Positions 17,786 to 23,170 of a stretch of DNA of 64,000 bases are shown here, one piece after another (the stretch's first letter is position 1; every line of letters begins with the position of its first letter). Made by a program: the position numbers and the translations under genes. This DNA comes from Escherichia phage vB_EcoM_SA20RB, in sequence record OL960581; one strand, written 5' to 3'. A model generated the notes under the pieces. It saw only the letters and a program-made list of their open reading frames with translations, had not been told where the DNA came from and made no database searches.

Positions 17786-19882
17786 TTATCCTTGAACGAA
17801 CTTGTAAGGCATGTTTGCAATATCTATGCAAGATGCAATAATTCCAAGAGATGATTCTACTTTTTGTTTAACATTTGATGAAACAAATGATGCAAAGTCA
17901 ACTCTGTCTTCTATTTCAATATCACCTGTCATTGCAACTACTTCACCAGTTTCCATTAGACGGTCACCGTCATAAATTACTGATTCGGTGAGTTCTTCCG
18001 TAGTCATAACTTCAGCTTGAATGAGTTTTGTATTATTAGATGTTGTTCCGTCATTATTAGAAGCATCAGTTATTTTATTAACTTTGACCATCAATCCGCG
18101 TGGTAGAATTACTTCAGCTTCTGTTGCTATTCCTAGACTTCCTGGATATACAACATTAACTTTATGAGCTCCATCAATTGCCCATCCTATTTGAACTTTA
18201 ACGTATTCAGGATTTTCTTTATACGCTCTTATTTCGTTTGGATTAATAGTTATTCCTTCTTCATTTTTATCAACTGTCAATTCATTACGAGCTTCTGGTT
18301 CTAAAAGACCAATACCAGCATGTGTAATTCCAAAACGTCCAAAAATGATAGGAGTTAAAGAAGTAGATACAAAATTTCTGAAATAGAACACTTTATTTTT
18401 AACTAGTGCTTCGTATATAGGAGCAGTCATGCTTTGAGCACGATAAACTGTAATGCCTTCTGGTATACGATCACCATTTTCAAAAGCTGAATCTAAGTTA
18501 TTTATAGCAGATTCAATTTCTTTTTCACTCATTACATCATATCGTTCTGGATTGTAACGACCCAAAAGAAGATTATTGATGTCAGTATATCCTGAACCAC
18601 AATACTCTCTAATGCCGCGCTTTTGTGATGGAGTATATTTAGAACCATCACGGGCAATAGTAATATCAATCATTGGACCTGCACCAATTCCAGAAAAGCT
18701 ATAAATCATTCTTTTAAGGAATTTAGTTTTTGCTGCGTTCCAGGAATTTTTAGTTATTTCTTCCCAGACTTCATCTGGCTGCCCTTTACGAGTTTTATTA
18801 TGTTTATCAAGCCAATTATCTTTATATTCTTCAAAGAATTGATTAACAGCTGCTGCGTATTTCTCTAAACATTTTATTGAAGTAGTTGGTTCATTTTTAA
18901 TCGCATTAAGAATTACATCTTTAATTTTTTCAGAAACTTCATTAACCTCACTTTTTGAAAAGAATTTATAATCATAGTGAAGTTCATTTGCAGTTCCTTC
19001 AGCAATAATTTTTGCTGTCTTTGTTTTAGAAGCTAATGAATTAATTCCAAGCTTCATTTCTTCTGCTTCGGGAATTAAAGGAGCGGTAGCAGGTTTATTG
19101 AAATTAGCTGCGGTAGATTCATACTTCTGGAATAATTCACTTTCAAATCTAGAAGATTCTAATGATTGACTTTGCGCAATTGCTCTACGGGAAATTTTAA
19201 CTTTAACGATTACAGCTTGGTCAGAACGTTTATCATTTTCTTGCGCAATAGATGCAGCAATTGCCTCATTTTTAGTTACTTGAGCTCCAGTATCTTTATT
19301 GATATAAACATCACCAACCTTCGATTCAACTTTAGTAAAGAGCTCGGTACTAATTTCCGGAACTCCTGGAATGTCTTCTAGTGATACATTTTTGCGATGT
19401 ATAAGAATATATGCATACTTTTTATCGTAATCCCAAAGTTCCTTAAGAAGGACGTATCTGCCGCCTGAGCGACTACGGATAAGTCTATCAGCAATAAGTT
19501 GAATTTGACGAGCTTGACCAGCAGTTTTAGACTTAAGAATACGGAGCATGCAGGCATCAATTTTATACTGACGCATCGTCTGCATCGCAACAGTAAAAAC
19601 TGAATTGATGTAATTAATTGGGCTTGGACCGAGACCTTTTAATTTAGCAATTGAACCTTTAGCAGTTAATGTAAAAGGAACAATATGCATCATTTTATCG
19701 CCCATTTTTAAATCGCGATTAGTATCACCTCCAGATGTATAGGTACATAAACGAAAGCCTGGTTGTTCAATTGCGTCATCAACATGAACTGAAAAAATTT
19801 GCGGTATTTTCTTCTTTGGATTTAAGTTTGTAATCGGAAGAGTAGTATCTTCGTCAAATAATTCTGTAATGAGTTCCATCAT
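17786..19882 (-). CDS. alt: Alt ADP-ribosyltransferase (packaged head protein)
   Basis: 698-aa ORF (697 if the second Met is used); adjacent to gene 30 as in T4; late promoter upstream. Confidence 0.85.
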   Translation of the reverse strand: MMELITELFDEDTTLPITNLNPKKKIPQIFSVHVDDAIEQPGFRLCTYTSGGDTNRDLKMGDKMMHIVPFTLTAKGSIAKLKGLGPSPINYINSVFTVAMQTMRQYKIDACMLRILKSKTAGQARQIQLIADRLIRSRSGGRYVLLKELWDYDKKYAYILIHRKNVSLEDIPGVPEISTELFTKVESKVGDVYINKDTGAQVTKNEAIAASIAQENDKRSDQAVIVKVKISRRAIAQSQSLESSRFESELFQKYESTAANFNKPATAPLIPEAEEMKLGINSLASKTKTAKIIAEGTANELHYDYKFFSKSEVNEVSEKIKDVILNAIKNEPTTSIKCLEKYAAAVNQFFEEYKDNWLDKHNKTRKGQPDEVWEEITKNSWNAAKTKFLKRMIYSFSGIGAGPMIDITIARDGSKYTPSQKRGIREYCGSGYTDINNLLLGRYNPERYDVMSEKEIESAINNLDSAFENGDRIPEGITVYRAQSMTAPIYEALVKNKVFYFRNFVSTSLTPIIFGRFGITHAGIGLLEPEARNELTVDKNEEGITINPNEIRAYKENPEYVKVQIGWAIDGAHKVNVVYPGSLGIATEAEVILPRGLMVKVNKITDASNNDGTTSNNTKLIQAEVMTTEELTESVIYDGDRLMETGEVVAMTGDIEIEDRVDFASFVSSNVKQKVESSLGIIASCIDIANMPYKFVQG

Positions 19883-19931: not shown

Positions 19932-20120
19932 TTAATAATCTATTGGTAAGAGAGTACGATATATTTCAAACTTTGGACCTTTTTCGTAGGCATCAAATGT
20001 TTCTGTAAATTTATTATAAGCATATGCATCTATAAATTCAATCATAATTTGTGATACAGAAGTAGAAACATCTCCACCTTCTTTTTGAGCAACGACAATT
20101 GTTTCTAAGTAAGCTTTCAT
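19932..20120 (-). CDS. hypothetical protein
   Basis: 62-aa ORF whose start overlaps the gene 30 stop. Confidence 0.5.
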   Translation of the reverse strand: MKAYLETIVVAQKEGGDVSTSVSQIMIEFIDAYAYNKFTETFDAYEKGPKFEIYRTLLPIDY

Positions 20121-21580
20121 AGACCAGTTACCTCATGAAAATCACCAAATACATCCTCGAATGTATTAGCTTTAGTTTTATCTTCACGTAAACGAATCGC
20201 AATCGGAAGAAATAATTTAACGTAATCAGTGCGGCCATCAGATTTTAGCCAACCGTTGCATTCGCACTCTAGAATTTTTCCAATATAATAATTTTGGTTT
20301 TCCATAATGCGAGTACGGTCAAGTTCATGTGATTTTACACCGGCTTTATCTTTTAAGCCTGAACCAGCATTTACTTTAATTTTTCCACACTCTGATTCAA
20401 GAATAAATCCACCTGCTTTAGTAGGGTCTTTACGGTGAGGATAAATTCCTACAATTTTTAAATCAACATCAATTACTTCTTTAAATTTATAGAGATTTTT
20501 TGAACGAGCATTTTCCCACAATCCATCGGTATTTTTGAGAATAATACCTTCAAGACCTTGGTCAATATATTTTTTATAAATTACCTTAGCTTCATCTAGG
20601 TTATTTACTACCTGGTTTTCAATTAAAATTACTTTATCATATCCTGATGTCATTTGTTCTAGTTTAGAAAAACGTACATCATATTTTAAACGAAACGCCG
20701 GAAGACCGTATATTTCTACCAACGGGACATAATCCCAGACCTGAAACTTCATGCATTTGGCTTCTTTTTCGGAAATGGTTCCTTTTAAGGATTTATTGGC
20801 GATTCCATTAGAAGTAGTACGAGATTCCGCTACTTCGGCGAATTCTTTAGCTTTACTAATTTCAGGATAAGCATCAAAAAGAAAATCTAGGCCTTCTGGT
20901 TCCTTTTTAACTTGCTCATGGTATACCAATTCGCCATCAATTAACACACCTTCTGGATGAATCTGGCGGGCTTCAGCAGTCATTTTGATTAACTCTTCCT
21001 TAAGAAGATCTAATCCTAGATATTCATTACCAGCTCGTGATAAAAGACGAACATCATCTAATTCATCACCTCGAACTTCAGCAAAACACCGAGCTCCATC
21101 TGCTTTTAGCTGTGCAAAAGCTGGAAACTTGATATTCTTACTAATGCCTTTTTCATCATAAGAACTTGCCAGCATTTGAGGTTGTTCAGGAATTAAACCT
21201 GGCCAAACTTTGTTTGCAATAGATACTGAAGCACCGCATTCAAGGTCTCGCATCATAACTCGACGCAAAACTTCAACATCATCCTTTTTACCATCAGTGA
21301 TATATCCAGTTAATTCCTCAATTGCAGCATTTCCAGTCAATTTCCGAGTAGCTAACGTGAATTCAATGAAGTCAAGCATATCGGTAATAGTCAGCATTCC
21401 AAAACTCTGGGTAGCAATACCAGGTTTAGGCCATTTCTTTATATAATACTGTAACCCACGAGAATAAGTCAGACGATATACCCGTTTAAGCAATTCATTA
21501 TCTTTATTCTTTTCAAGAATTGCTTGCTTCTGCTTAGTTGATCCAATAGATGCTATTTCATTCAGAATTTTAAGAATCAT
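20117..21580 (-). CDS. 30: ATP-dependent DNA ligase gp30
   Basis: 487 aa as in T4; KxDG adenylation motif (LKADGAR). Confidence 0.95.
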   Translation of the reverse strand: MILKILNEIASIGSTKQKQAILEKNKDNELLKRVYRLTYSRGLQYYIKKWPKPGIATQSFGMLTITDMLDFIEFTLATRKLTGNAAIEELTGYITDGKKDDVEVLRRVMMRDLECGASVSIANKVWPGLIPEQPQMLASSYDEKGISKNIKFPAFAQLKADGARCFAEVRGDELDDVRLLSRAGNEYLGLDLLKEELIKMTAEARQIHPEGVLIDGELVYHEQVKKEPEGLDFLFDAYPEISKAKEFAEVAESRTTSNGIANKSLKGTISEKEAKCMKFQVWDYVPLVEIYGLPAFRLKYDVRFSKLEQMTSGYDKVILIENQVVNNLDEAKVIYKKYIDQGLEGIILKNTDGLWENARSKNLYKFKEVIDVDLKIVGIYPHRKDPTKAGGFILESECGKIKVNAGSGLKDKAGVKSHELDRTRIMENQNYYIGKILECECNGWLKSDGRTDYVKLFLPIAIRLREDKTKANTFEDVFGDFHEVTGL

Positions 21581-21846
21581 TGTTCATCCTTCAGAGTTTG
21601 ATTTACAGCTCTATTATAAATCAATTCATCATTAAGCTCAGGCAAAGACTTATGATATGTAGTTCTAACTTTATTTCCTTGCATCCAGTGCTTGACATAA
21701 ATGAAACCTTGCTCTACACATTTTTTAAAAATTCGTTCGTCTTTTTGAGCTCGGAATTCTGGATTGCATCTAAAAAATTGATTTACGTGACCGTAATCAC
21801 GTGTAGTATTACCTTCATTTTCATAAATAGTGTGAACGACAAACAT
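21577..21846 (-). CDS. hypothetical protein (30.1 position)
   Basis: 89-aa ORF overlapping its neighbours by 4 nt. Confidence 0.55.
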   Translation of the reverse strand: MFVVHTIYENEGNTTRDYGHVNQFFRCNPEFRAQKDERIFKKCVEQGFIYVKHWMQGNKVRTTYHKSLPELNDELIYNRAVNQTLKDEQ

Positions 21847-22709
21847 TAGAATGCTCCTTGGAAAATATTATCACCACTAGTAAATCTATTAAAATACCCT
21901 GCATCGCCAGGCTTGGTATAACTCCACGTATGGAATGGATTCATATGATATGGGTGTGTATAATATGGATTATATGGATGTGTATAATATGGATTATACG
22001 GATTAAATCCAGGAGTTCTCCAGGTAGTGTTCCAACGAAAAGAATCGTTTTTAACCATCTTCTCAATTACATCTTTTATAGCTTTTTCACTATCAAAACT
22101 TTCTTTATTTTCCTTTGGTGAAAAAAGCTTATTTTCTATATCATTCCATGTATAAACTCGCTGTGCAGTTTTTGGAATTTTATCACGCTCTCCTCGAGCC
22201 ATCCAATAAACCGGAACATTTAATATTTCACTCGCATGGTCGCAGTGGTGAGCGAGATCGTCAATATAACAAATTACGTTATATTTCTCTTTTGCCTTTT
22301 TGAATAACTCTTCTTTTGAAGAATCATGACCACACATCATTACTTCTGAGAAGGCACCAGGAAAAAGAGCATTCAAATTAAATTGACGATTCAACAGAGC
22401 GTCAATAGAATCACCCAATGCTGTAACAGCTACAAAATTATAATCTTCTTTTAATTTGTTAATTACACACAGGGCATCTTTATACGGAGACAAATAACGA
22501 ATAAAATCTGAACGATTGTATTTTTCAATTAACTTGACACCAAGTTCTTCATCACAATTAAAGAGTTTACCTGGAGAAATAAATTTCTCATCTTGGATCA
22601 TTTTTAAAATATGTTCTAACGGAAGATTATATTTCTGAGCAAAATAAGGAAGGCCTGATTGCCAGCTTAAACATACTCCATCAATATCAGTCAAAATAGT
22701 TGGCTTCAT
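21846..22709 (-). CDS. HAD-like hydrolase with a C-terminal Pro/Tyr-rich repeat (30.2 position)
   Basis: 287 aa; N-terminal DIDGV motif typical of HAD phosphatases; C-terminal NPYNPYYTHPYNPYYTHPY. Confidence 0.65.
   Translation of the reverse strand: MKPTILTDIDGVCLSWQSGLPYFAQKYNLPLEHILKMIQDEKFISPGKLFNCDEELGVKLIEKYNRSDFIRYLSPYKDALCVINKLKEDYNFVAVTALGDSIDALLNRQFNLNALFPGAFSEVMMCGHDSSKEELFKKAKEKYNVICYIDDLAHHCDHASEILNVPVYWMARGERDKIPKTAQRVYTWNDIENKLFSPKENKESFDSEKAIKDVIEKMVKNDSFRWNTTWRTPGFNPYNPYYTHPYNPYYTHPYHMNPFHTWSYTKPGDAGYFNRFTSGDNIFQGAF
21955..22002 (-). repeat. 24-bp tandem repeat (2 copies) encoding NPYYTHPY
   Basis: TGTGTATAATATGGATTATA recurs with a 24-bp period. Confidence 0.7.
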
Positions 22710-23170
22710 AGAGAGTCTCTTAATAGGTTTAACACATCAATAAATTCAGCTTCGGTTAGTATTGTATCATCTTTTGTTAGACCACTAGCCATGCTATGCT
22801 TCAAAACTTTTCCTTTCGAGGCTTGTAATGCATTGCGAAATCCCTTGTTTTGGATCGCTGCTTCAAAATATGCATTTGTGTATAATTCTTTCCATGCTTC
22901 GGAATATCTTGAAAACGGAGTTCCAAGCCAGAACAACGTGCCACGGTCCTGAGCTCTTGCATAAGACCTTCCAGCTTGTTGGGCGGCAAGCCCGGATAAC
23001 CCAAATATACGACGCTGTTGTTCAACATTTTTCACCTTGCACCCTTGGAGGAATCCTTCAAGACCTCCAAATTGAATACCATCCATAACGAAAGGCCATT
23101 TGGCGAAATTACTTAATGCACATGATGGCCACCTAAAATTGCTTCTAATCTCTAACTCAGACATTTTCAA
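22706..23170 (-). CDS. hypothetical protein (30.3 position)
   Basis: 154-aa ORF. Confidence 0.6.
   Translation of the reverse strand: MKMSELEIRSNFRWPSCALSNFAKWPFVMDGIQFGGLEGFLQGCKVKNVEQQRRIFGLSGLAAQQAGRSYARAQDRGTLFWLGTPFSRYSEAWKELYTNAYFEAAIQNKGFRNALQASKGKVLKHSMASGLTKDDTILTEAEFIDVLNLLRDSL

What the first reader, a model, noticed from the sequence alone, without database searches (positions are those of the whole stretch)
21846..22709. 30.2-position protein combines a HAD-type phosphatase motif with a tandem NPYYTHPY repeat
The N-terminus has the DxDG(V/T) signature of HAD phosphohydrolases, while the C-terminal 60 residues are Pro/Tyr/His-rich with two exact 8-residue repeats encoded by a 24-bp tandem DNA repeat (21955-22002). 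The repeat could vary in copy number and may form a metal- or protein-binding tail.
Basis: partly seen in the sequence, partly recalled or inferred. Interest (0 to 1): 0.35.

Follow-up and report, generated by a model that had tools for sequence, protein, structure and literature searches.

The report
T4 gp30.2: HAD phosphatase, repeat-variable tail
This gene is the T4-phage 30.2 orthologue: a well-conserved but never-assayed enzyme of the HAD phosphatase type, most like 5'-nucleotidases, carrying a floppy aromatic/proline-rich tail in which an 8-residue unit occurs in one, two or three copies in different phage isolates. It is a tidy but fairly ordinary finding.

Summary
ORF 21846-22709 (-) encodes a 287-aa protein, the orthologue of T4 gp30.2 in a Tequatrovirus.

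**HAD domain.** Residues 1-195 form a HAD-superfamily phosphatase domain:
- All four catalytic motifs are conserved across the family (D8/D10 and K132 invariant; T96 and the motif-IV Asp nearly so).
- The AlphaFold model has pLDDT >90 here.
- The 50 top-ranked PDB fold matches listed are HAD-superfamily folds.
- The query itself misses every Pfam model. Relatives retrieved at E~1e-20 pass Pfam's NT5C (5'(3')-deoxyribonucleotidase) threshold, so it is a divergent NT5C-like enzyme.

**Repeat.** NPYYTHPY x2 is real. The 24-bp units lie at 21948-21995, 7 nt from the stated coordinates, and match at 23/24 bases. Copy number varies as predicted: one unit in phage D5505, two in this window and about 50 listed records, three in BYEP01.

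**Tail.** It is predicted disordered, is indel-prone, and evolves about 8-fold faster than the enzyme domain (pN/pS 0.32 vs 0.04). Most family members lack a tail. His positions are not conserved, so metal binding is unsupported.

**Context.** The upstream overlapping gene 30.3 is the published anti-DarT NADAR enzyme AdfN.

No experimental function is known for gp30.2. Interest is modest.

The parts
21846..22709 (-). Gene 30.2 orthologue, 287 codons plus stop. It encodes an NT5C-like HAD phosphatase with a C-terminal extension.
   Evidence: ORF list; phrog_420 at E=1.6e-89; annotated as gp30.2 in T4T and RB69.
22125..22709 (-). HAD phosphatase domain, residues 1-195. Motif I is D8-x-D10-G-V, motif II T96, motif III K132 and motif IV D150-D151. 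A helical C1-type cap spans roughly residues 16-86.
   Evidence: Conserved motif columns; pLDDT >90 and alternating strand/helix pattern; Foldseek HAD hits; pN/pS 0.04.
22038..22124 (-). Linker plus amphipathic helix, residues 196-224. The helix at 207-220 is predicted with pLDDT about 89.
   Evidence: An equivalent charged helix is present in most tail-bearing homologues. pN/pS 0.19.
21849..22037 (-). Aromatic/Pro-rich tail, residues 225-287, predicted to be disordered. It contains the TWRTPG anchor and six [NH]P[YF] motifs.
   Evidence: pLDDT <50 over most of residues 225-287; composition; pN/pS 0.32; multiple in-frame indels among alleles.
21948..21995 (-). Two tandem 24-bp units (AATCCATATTATACACAYCCATAT) encoding NPYYTHPY twice. 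This is the copy-number-variable element.
   Evidence: Alleles with 1, 2 and 3 units occur in D5505, the window and BYEP01.
21846..21875 (-). Last 9 codons plus the stop codon. This stretch is nearly invariant at the nucleotide level, carries the AAGGAG Shine-Dalgarno sequence, and overlaps the gene 30.1 start in TAATG.
   Evidence: pS is 0.05 here against 0.17-0.24 elsewhere in the gene.
22706..22709 (-). ATGA overlap between the stop of gene 30.3 (adfN) and the start of gene 30.2.

Best explanation
The ORF is the Tequatrovirus orthologue of T4 gp30.2. Residues 1-195 are a capped (C1-type) HAD-superfamily phosphomonoesterase. By analogy with the superfamily, catalysis is inferred to use Mg2+, with D8 as nucleophile, D10 as general acid/base, T96 and K132 binding the phosphoryl group, and D150/D151 binding the metal. 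The family is a divergent, phage-specific branch of the NT5C (5'(3')-deoxyribonucleotidase) type. The most likely substrate is therefore a small phosphorylated molecule, probably a (deoxy)nucleoside monophosphate. This is inferred and has not been shown. Residues 196-287 are a lineage-specific extension: a short amphipathic helix followed by a disordered, aromatic/Pro-rich tail. The tail evolves fast by replication slippage or unequal recombination between short AATCCATAT-type direct repeats. The NPYYTHPY doubling is one recent in-frame 24-bp duplication within an allelic series of 1, 2 or 3 units. The tail is under weak purifying selection and keeps a TWRTPG anchor, so it most likely acts as a flexible tether or short-linear-motif carrier. 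The repeat number probably has little or only modulatory effect. The extreme 3' end of the gene is constrained at the DNA level because it carries the ribosome-binding site and start codon of gene 30.1.
For: HAD fold:
- The catalytic motifs are conserved in 60 close homologues (D8, D10, K132, D150, D151 invariant; T96 >=90%). In 62 distant homologues D8, D10 and K132 stay invariant and a motif-IV Asp is >=90% conserved.
- The AF2 model has pLDDT >90 for residues 1-195.
- The 50 Foldseek PDB matches listed are HAD-superfamily folds at probability 1.00. They include 3bwv (TMt 0.67-0.71), cdN 2jao/4yih (rmsd 4.3-4.6) and mdN.
- BFVD matches are gp30.2 orthologues, then phage '5' nucleotidase' and HAD proteins.

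NT5C link:
- The best PDB sequence hit of the family profile is a 5'(3')-deoxyribonucleotidase, aligned through 'DGVL.D(F/W).SGL'.
- NT5C is the most frequent Pfam hit among members: 12/60 and 17/62 with best E=4e-10.
- P0215, P0239 and P0242 pass the NT5C gathering score over the full model. The gp30.2 profile retrieves them at E about 1e-19 to 1e-20.
- A profile of distant members hits the yeast pyrimidine nucleotidase SDT1/SSM1 and 3bwv.

Cap: six helices lie between motif I and motif II.

Tail:
- pLDDT is <50 over most of residues 225-287.
- Only 7 of 96 distant representatives have a long extension, against 60 of 99 close relatives.
- pN/pS is 0.32 in the tail against 0.04 in the enzyme domain.
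- In-frame indels of 24, 15, 6, 6 and 3 nt cluster in the repeat-rich stretch.
- Alleles with 1, 2 and 3 units exist.

3' end: the last 30 nt are nearly invariant and include AAGGAG and TAATG.
Against: - The query itself reaches no Pfam, NCBIfam or PDB sequence threshold, so the NT5C assignment is transitive.
- Foldseek E-values for non-nucleotidase HADs (cis-epoxysuccinate hydrolase, dehalogenases, YfnB) are as good as for the nucleotidases. Fold alone therefore does not fix the substrate.
- No enzymatic or genetic data for gp30.2 were found in the searchable literature.
- A dNMP phosphatase seems counter-productive for a phage that salvages host dNMPs (my own knowledge of T4 nucleotide metabolism).
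- Disorder is inferred only from low pLDDT with a heterogeneous alignment.
- A pN/pS below 1 in the tail could partly reflect nucleotide-level constraints.
Confidence: 0.72

Rival explanations
1. gp30.2 is a functional partner of the upstream, overlapping gene 30.3. That gene is AdfN, a NADAR DNA ADP-ribosylglycohydrolase that counters DarTG1. gp30.2 might dephosphorylate ADP-ribose breakdown products, or it might be the 'additional T-even protein' that AdfN appears to need.
For: - The 30.3 stop and the 30.2 start overlap in ATGA.
- 30.3 lies directly upstream of 30.2 in Tequatrovirus, RB69, UGJNEcP4 and Acinetobacter phages.
- gp30.3 is NADAR-like by my own tests and by experiment (PMC11825919).
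- That paper reports that AdfN fails outside T-even infection and suggests a missing phage protein.
- RB69, which AdfN-T4 rescues, has an intact 30.2.
- Coupling of ADPr-releasing enzymes to phosphatases, including HAD 5'-nucleotidases, is described in PMC9503650.
- The two genes occur in nearly the same set of phage genera.
Against: - No 30.3-family gene lies next to the HAD gene in the Klebsiella, Erwinia, Salmonella, Yersinia phiR1-RT and Shewanella phages examined.
- Both genes are simply widespread in T4-like genomes, whose gene order is conserved in general.
- NADAR chemistry leaves no terminal phosphate for a HAD enzyme to remove, and ADP-ribose needs a Nudix step first.
- adfN alone in trans rescues RB69.
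Confidence: 0.08
2. gp30.2 is a nucleic-acid end-processing phosphatase, for example a DNA 3'-phosphatase, that prepares nicks for the adjacent DNA ligase.
For: In all eight phage lineages examined the gene sits zero or one small gene upstream of the ATP-dependent DNA ligase. There is a faint match to the polynucleotide kinase/phosphatase family phrog_415 at E=0.0018. PNKP phosphatase domains appear among the weaker viral fold matches.
Against: The model has a roughly 70-residue helical C1 cap over the active site. By established HAD classification (Burroughs et al. 2006, from memory), such a cap goes with small-molecule substrates, whereas macromolecule-acting HADs such as PNKP are capless. 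T4-like phages already encode PseT/PNKP nearby. The significant sequence links are to NT5C, not PNKP. Gene order in T4-like genomes is conserved in general.
Confidence: 0.07
3. The tail has no function of its own. It is tolerated low-complexity read-through sequence, and the repeat is neutral slippage noise. The reading frame is kept only so that ribosomes terminate at the TAATG and reinitiate on gene 30.1.
For: Most family members lack a tail. Tails of different lineages are unrelated in sequence. pN/pS rises 8-fold relative to the enzyme domain, and indels are frequent. The C-terminal motif GIEYLxxQPT, conserved in many genera, is degraded in this allele to GDAGYFNRFT. The 3' end is constrained at the DNA level.
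Against: pN/pS of 0.32 is still well below 1. TWRTPG and the preceding helix are retained across Tequatrovirus and Mosigvirus. Tails of similar architecture (helix, then a W/Y/P-rich segment, then a terminal motif) recur in many lineages. UGJNEcP4 keeps 30.1 without any tail, so coupling to 30.1 does not require one.
Confidence: 0.25
4. The His-containing octapeptide repeat is a metal-binding module, analogous to the prion octarepeat, whose capacity scales with copy number.
For: There is one His per 8-residue unit, with aromatic neighbours. The number of units varies.
Against: His is only 6% of the tail. The His positions are not conserved among sister alleles: THPY becomes THSH, HMNPFH becomes QMHPFH or QTHPFQ, and T4 lacks the unit. 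No Cys, Asp or Glu cluster is present. More distant tails are Trp/Pro-rich with few His.
Confidence: 0.04

Closest known systems
5'(3')-deoxyribonucleotidases of the NT5C family (Pfam PF06941; human/mouse cdN and mdN, S. epidermidis 3bwv)
   Same: Both have the HAD Rossmannoid core with a DxDGV motif I, a Thr motif II, a Lys motif III and a DD motif IV. Both have a helical C1 cap inserted right after motif I. An aromatic residue sits 8 positions after the nucleophile, W16 here and Phe in cdN. Domain size is about 190-200 aa. The NT5C enzymes give the best target-normalised TM-scores and the lowest rmsd among PDB hits. Bridging relatives pass the Pfam threshold.
   Different: The query does not reach the NT5C model at E<=1. 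Sequence identity to the structural matches is 13-18%. Family-specific invariant residues (S18, Y64, S67, Y76, D78, R108, N111) are not features I can tie to NT5C. The 92-residue C-terminal extension is absent from NT5C enzymes. No activity has been measured.
Yeast SDT1/SSM1 pyrimidine 5'-nucleotidase and related HAD subfamily IA nucleotide phosphatases
   Same: The profile of distant gp30.2-family members hits 3nuq, 3onn and 3opx at E=3e-5 to 8e-5 over the motif III-IV region.
   Different: The match covers only about 60 residues, and the caps are not alignable by sequence.
T4 PseT polynucleotide kinase/3'-phosphatase (HAD domain)
   Same: It is a HAD phosphatase encoded in the same genome type, with the same DxD chemistry. 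There is a faint phrog_415 match.
   Different: gp30.2 has no kinase domain and has a large cap. PNKP's phosphatase is capless and acts on polynucleotide ends (my own knowledge).
T4 gp30.2 itself (279 aa cluster representative P0001; 278 aa in T4T)
   Same: It is the orthologue, in the same position and with 91% identity.
   Different: T4 has NPYNPYHPYQTHPFQTW with no NPYYTHPY unit, and it keeps the GIEYLYNRPT motif that is degraded in the window allele.

Membership tests
HAD superfamily (phosphatase branch) | Motif I, DxDx[TV], with a nucleophile Asp and an Asp at +2 | tested here: met
   D8-I-D10-G-V. D8 and D10 are invariant in 60 close and 62 distant homologues.
HAD superfamily (phosphatase branch) | Motif II Ser/Thr, motif III Lys/Arg and motif IV acidic pair, in the canonical order | tested here: met
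   T96 is >=90% conserved. K132 is invariant in both alignments. D150-D151 are invariant in the close set, and a motif-IV Asp is >=90% conserved in the distant set.
HAD superfamily (phosphatase branch) | Rossmannoid alpha/beta core fold | tested here: met
   The AF2 model has pLDDT >90 over residues 1-195. The 50 listed Foldseek PDB matches are HAD-superfamily folds at probability 1.00, and 100 hits have E<=1e-3.
HAD superfamily (phosphatase branch) | Mg2+-dependent phosphoryl-transfer activity | not testable with these tools
   This needs an enzyme assay.
NT5C 5'(3')-deoxyribonucleotidase family (PF06941) | Score above Pfam's gathering threshold (24.8 bits) | tested here: not met
   The query gives no hit at E<=1. 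Relatives P0215, P0239 and P0242 score 34.6, 32.1 and 29.0 bits, and the gp30.2 profile matches them at E about 1e-19 to 1e-20. The query is therefore homologous to the family but is not a member by Pfam's criterion.
NT5C 5'(3')-deoxyribonucleotidase family (PF06941) | Alpha-helical C1 cap between motifs I and II, and close structural similarity to cdN/mdN | tested here: met
   Helices at 16-26, 32-40, 46-49, 54-65, 68-72 and 77-86 lie between strand 4-7 and strand 91-96. TMt is 0.61-0.71 and rmsd 4.3-5.3 to 3bwv, 2jao, 4yih, 1q92 and 6g2l.
NT5C 5'(3')-deoxyribonucleotidase family (PF06941) | Hydrolysis of 5'- or 3'-(deoxy)nucleoside monophosphates | not testable with these tools
   No assay data were found.
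PNKP-type polynucleotide 3'-phosphatase | Capless HAD domain fused to a P-loop kinase | tested here: not met
   There is no kinase domain, a large cap is present, and the only link is a faint phrog_415 match at E=0.0018.
Copy-number-variable tandem repeat (slippage-prone coding minisatellite) | Head-to-tail units of near-identical DNA, with alleles that differ by whole units among close relatives | tested here: met
   TRF period 24 with 93% matches. Alleles of 1, 2 and 3 units sit in otherwise near-identical tails of D5505, the window and BYEP01.
Metal-binding His octarepeat (prion-like) | His, and its ligand context, conserved in every unit and across alleles | tested here: not met
   His is replaced by Q, N, S or Y in sister alleles, and the unit is absent in T4 and RB69.

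The most novel reading that the evidence does not exclude
gp30.2 is the unidentified 'additional T-even protein' that the anti-DarT NADAR enzyme AdfN (gp30.3) needs in order to work. Alternatively, it completes an ADP-ribose clean-up pathway downstream of AdfN. In this reading its fast-evolving aromatic tail would act as the tether to AdfN or to the replication machinery.
Probability: 0.07. Interest if true: 0.7.

Novelty: new member of a known kind. Interest (0 to 1): 0.3.

Why it matters
gp30.2 is conserved in about 1,450 sequenced T4-like phages, yet it has no experimentally known function and is labelled 'hypothetical protein' in most records. Placing it firmly as a catalytically intact, NT5C-like HAD phosphatase gives a concrete assay to run in the best-studied phage model. 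Its position, overlapping the recently characterised anti-DarT gene adfN and just upstream of DNA ligase, suggests two cheap genetic tests. The 1/2/3-copy repeat series is a small natural experiment on slippage-driven evolution of a disordered tail. None of this overturns current understanding.

Tried and rejected
1. Promoter idea. Each unit junction (CCATAT|AATCC) creates a TATAAT on the coding strand. However, sigma-70-like sites in 21400-22900 occur at chance frequency (8 found against 7.1 +/- 2.8 expected), and TATAAT is not enriched in the window (108 against 98 +/- 11). Rejected.

2. phiR1-RT extension. By eye, the 110-aa C-terminal extension of the Yersinia phage phiR1-RT homologue (P0066) looked like gp30.1. 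BLASTP finds nothing (E=6.2). Rejected.

3. Tail versus 30.1. I asked whether tail presence tracks presence of gene 30.1 (DUF3045). It does not. UGJNEcP4 has 30.1 but no tail, and Klebsiella and Erwinia phages have tails but a different small downstream ORF.

4. Direct sequence searches of the query against Pfam, NCBIfam and the PDB gave nothing significant. Only family profiles, transitive links and structure gave signal.

5. Literature searches for gp30.2, Y12B_BPT4, DUF3045 and phage HAD deoxyribonucleotidases returned nothing relevant. The T4 genome review (PMC150520) is not held.

6. Antisense and alternative-frame ORFs over the repeat (21858-22121 on +, 21941-22066 on -) have no support beyond being open. 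I did not pursue them.

7. Genome context of the NT5C-passing bridging relatives gave only short metagenomic contigs, which were uninformative.
Full report
**What is in the sequence.** The minus-strand ORF at 21846..22709 encodes 287 aa beginning MKPTILTDIDGVCLSW. The peptide NPYYTHPY occurs twice in tandem at residues 239-254. Tandem Repeats Finder reports a 24-nt period at 21948-22003, with 2.3 copies, 93% matches and score 98. The two complete units are 21972-21995 and 21948-21971. They differ at one synonymous base, CAT versus CAC. Everything else is as described. Residues 225-287 are 13% Pro, 14% Tyr, 6% His, 11% Asn, 13% Thr, 10% Phe and 5% Trp, with no Glu, Leu, Val or Cys. This is the only stretch of its kind in any long ORF of the window.

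**Identity and context.** The 1.6-kb region is 99.2% identical to Shigella phage vb_GEC_SH_GT and matches 674 Tequatrovirus-type records. Pfam identifies the neighbouring genes as DNA ligase (gene 30), DUF3045 (30.1), Phage_30_3 (30.3), Gp30_7 and 30_8. The T4T and RB69 records label the orthologue 30.2. Genes 30.3, 30.2, 30.1, 30 and alt.1 form a chain of overlapping stop and start codons: ATGA at 22706-22709, TAATG at 21846, ATGA at 21577-21580 and again at 20117-20120.

**Is it a HAD enzyme?** The single sequence finds nothing significant in Pfam, NCBIfam or the PDB. In PHROGs it falls in phrog_420, 'unknown function'. Evidence appears at the family level:
- In an alignment of 60 homologues, D8, D10, K132, D150 and D151 are invariant and T96 is at least 90% conserved. 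These are the four HAD motifs in canonical order.
- In 62 much more distant relatives, D8, D10 and K132 remain invariant and a motif-IV Asp is at least 90% conserved.
- The AlphaFold2 model built from that alignment has pLDDT above 90 over residues 1-195. It shows an alternating strand/helix core and six helices (residues 16-86) inserted between motif I and motif II, which is a C1-type cap.
- Foldseek against the PDB gives 100 hits at E<=1e-3. The 50 listed are HAD-superfamily folds at probability 1.00.
- Against viral models, it finds gp30.2 orthologues and then phage proteins named 5'-nucleotidase or HAD.

**Which kind of HAD?**
- The family profile's best PDB sequence hit is mouse cytosolic 5'(3')-deoxyribonucleotidase at E=0.11. 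The alignment runs through 'DGVL.D(F/W).SGL' and places the invariant W16 opposite a Phe of cdN. From memory, the equivalent Phe in mdN lines the base pocket. I treat that as a lead only.
- NT5C is the commonest Pfam match among family members: 12/60 and 17/62, with best E=4e-10.
- An exhaustive profile search found 1330 cluster representatives at E<=1e-3, nearly all 190-220 aa long.
- Three of those representatives (P0215, P0239, P0242; profile E about 1e-19 to 1e-20) pass Pfam's curated NT5C threshold over the whole model, at 34.6, 32.1 and 29.0 bits against 24.8.
- A profile of distant members also hits the yeast pyrimidine nucleotidase SDT1/SSM1 and the S. epidermidis deoxyribonucleotidase-like protein 3bwv.
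- Among PDB folds, the deoxyribonucleotidases give the highest target-normalised TM-scores (0.61-0.71) and the lowest rmsd (4.3-5.3 A).

I conclude that gp30.2 is a divergent, phage-specific branch of NT5C-like nucleotidases. It is homologous to the family, but it is not a member by Pfam's own criterion, and no substrate has been demonstrated. Other HADs (epoxysuccinate hydrolase, dehalogenases, YfnB) score equally well by Foldseek E-value, so the fold alone does not fix the substrate. Some GenBank records already call this gene '5'-3' deoxyribonucleotidase', 'HAD-like hydrolase', '5' nucleotidase' or 'putative phosphatase'. The annotation is therefore not new.

**The repeat and the tail.**
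- Phage D5505 has one NPYYTHPY unit in a tail otherwise identical to the window's (279 aa).
- The window, Shfl2 and about 50 of the 60 records listed have two units.
- RPN226 has two units plus an extra NPY (290 aa).
- BYEP01 has three units (295 aa). It was found with a synthetic 3-copy probe and then read directly.
- T4 itself has NPYNPYHPYQTHPFQTW and no such unit.

A DNA alignment of eight alleles shows further independent in-frame indels of 15, 6, 6 and 3 nt in the same AATCCATAT-rich stretch. This fits slippage or unequal recombination between short direct repeats.

Pooled Nei-Gojobori estimates over 14 alleles give pN/pS of 0.04 for the enzyme domain, 0.19 for the linker and helix, and 0.32 for the tail. 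The tail is therefore relaxed about 8-fold but is not neutral. The last nine codons show no amino-acid change and also suppressed synonymous change (pS 0.05). They contain the AAGGAG ribosome-binding site and the TAATG junction of gene 30.1, so this conservation is best explained at the DNA level.

The model gives pLDDT below 50 over most of residues 225-287, but about 89 for a helix at 207-220. Across the family, long extensions occur in 60 of 99 close (enterobacterial T4-like) relatives but only 7 of 96 distant representatives. They fall into several unrelated types with different terminal motifs. The GxGIEYLxxQPT motif shared by T4 and many Klebsiella or Enterobacter phages is degraded in the window allele to GDAGYFNRFT. 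The TWRTPG anchor is shared even with RB69. His positions are not conserved among alleles, which argues against a dedicated metal site. Protein binding remains possible but untested.

**Surroundings.**
- In all eight phage lineages examined, the HAD gene lies zero or one small gene upstream of the ATP-dependent DNA ligase.
- Tail presence does not track presence of gene 30.1.
- One metagenomic contig carries a single ORF that fuses the HAD domain to a genuine DUF3045 domain (39% identical to gp30.1, E=5e-17). This is a single 1.4-kb contig, so it is weak evidence of a functional link.

The upstream overlapping gene 30.3 reminded me of NADAR/YbiA proteins. I tested this. A homologue (P0263) carries both PF08010 and PF08719. 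The family profile hits E. coli YbiA at E=3e-4. The AF2 model's only credible fold matches are YbiA and two NADAR structures.

The literature then showed that this is already known. gp30.3 is AdfN, a NADAR DNA ADP-ribosylglycohydrolase that neutralises DarTG1 (PMC11825919). That paper mentions 30.2 only in a figure legend. [quoted passage not shown] A survey of viral NAD/ADPr systems notes frequent coupling of ADPr-releasing hydrolases to phosphatases, including HAD 5'-nucleotidases (PMC9503650).

gp30.2 is thus a positional candidate for that helper, and RB69, which AdfN-T4 rescues, has an intact copy. The evidence is thin, however. The HAD gene and NADAR homologues are both simply widespread in T4-like phages (1456 and 1510 records). 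No 30.3-family gene is adjacent to the HAD gene in the Klebsiella, Erwinia, Salmonella, phiR1-RT and Shewanella phages examined. NADAR chemistry also leaves no phosphate for a HAD enzyme to remove. I give this reading about 7%.

**Verdict.** The gene is an orthologue of a long-catalogued but unassayed T4 ORF: a catalytically intact, NT5C-like HAD phosphatase with a fast-evolving, probably disordered aromatic/Pro-rich tail. A 24-bp unit in that tail exists in 1-3 copies among isolates. It is a new (divergent) member of a known kind. Interest is modest. The main value is a clear biochemical assay for a widely conserved T4 gene and a cheap test of a possible link to AdfN.

Noticed in passing
window 22706-23170 (-): Gene 30.3, whose stop overlaps the 30.2 start, is NADAR/YbiA-like. 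Homologue P0263 carries PF08010 plus PF08719. The family profile hits YbiA (2b3w) at E=3e-4. The AF2 model matches only YbiA and NADAR structures. The literature confirms it is AdfN, the anti-DarTG1 DNA ADP-ribosylglycohydrolase (PMC11825919).
   Followed up: yes
window 20117-23170 (-): Five consecutive genes (30.3, 30.2, 30.1, 30/ligase, alt.1) are linked by overlapping stop and start codons: ATGA, TAATG, ATGA, ATGA. This suggests translational coupling along the whole block.
   Followed up: partly
L021 234-1142 (Logan contig SRR21148734_3542831): A single ORF fuses a tail-less gp30.2-type HAD domain to a genuine DUF3045 (gp30.1) domain (E=8e-15 to Pfam; 39% identity to the window's gp30.1). 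It is seen on only one 1.4-kb contig, so it could be a real fusion or a lost stop codon or sequencing error.
   Followed up: partly
window 21880-21885 region; L011, L013, L014, L016: There is a second small slippage polymorphism near the C-terminus. A 6-nt TAGTGG duplication gives TSGSGDNIF in Shfl2, VEc74, vB_Eco_EL and T2, against TSGDNIF in the window.
   Followed up: partly
L019 434-701 (Escherichia phage vB_EcoM-RPN226): Gene 30.1 is annotated as two short overlapping CDSs in this phage, which suggests a frameshift or disruption of DUF3045 in the same isolate that carries the 2+NPY tail allele.
   Followed up: no
window 22801-23028 (-): A 75-codon ORF lies in an alternative frame inside gene 30.3. 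It corresponds in position to the T4 annotation 30.3' ('internal translation in a different reading frame within gene 30.3').
   Followed up: no
P0151 (591 aa), P0204 (660 aa), P0103 (430 aa), P0145 (365 aa): A few distant family members carry the HAD domain as part of much longer proteins. P0151 and P0204 have long N-terminal regions, and P0103 and P0145 have long C-terminal regions. None of these regions has a Pfam match at E<=1e-3.
   Followed up: no
window 17786-19882 (-): The Alt-type RNA polymerase ADP-ribosyltransferase (698 aa) lies two genes beyond ligase. The block therefore holds an ADP-ribosyltransferase, an ADP-ribosylglycohydrolase (AdfN) and the HAD phosphatase within 5.4 kb.
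   Followed up: no
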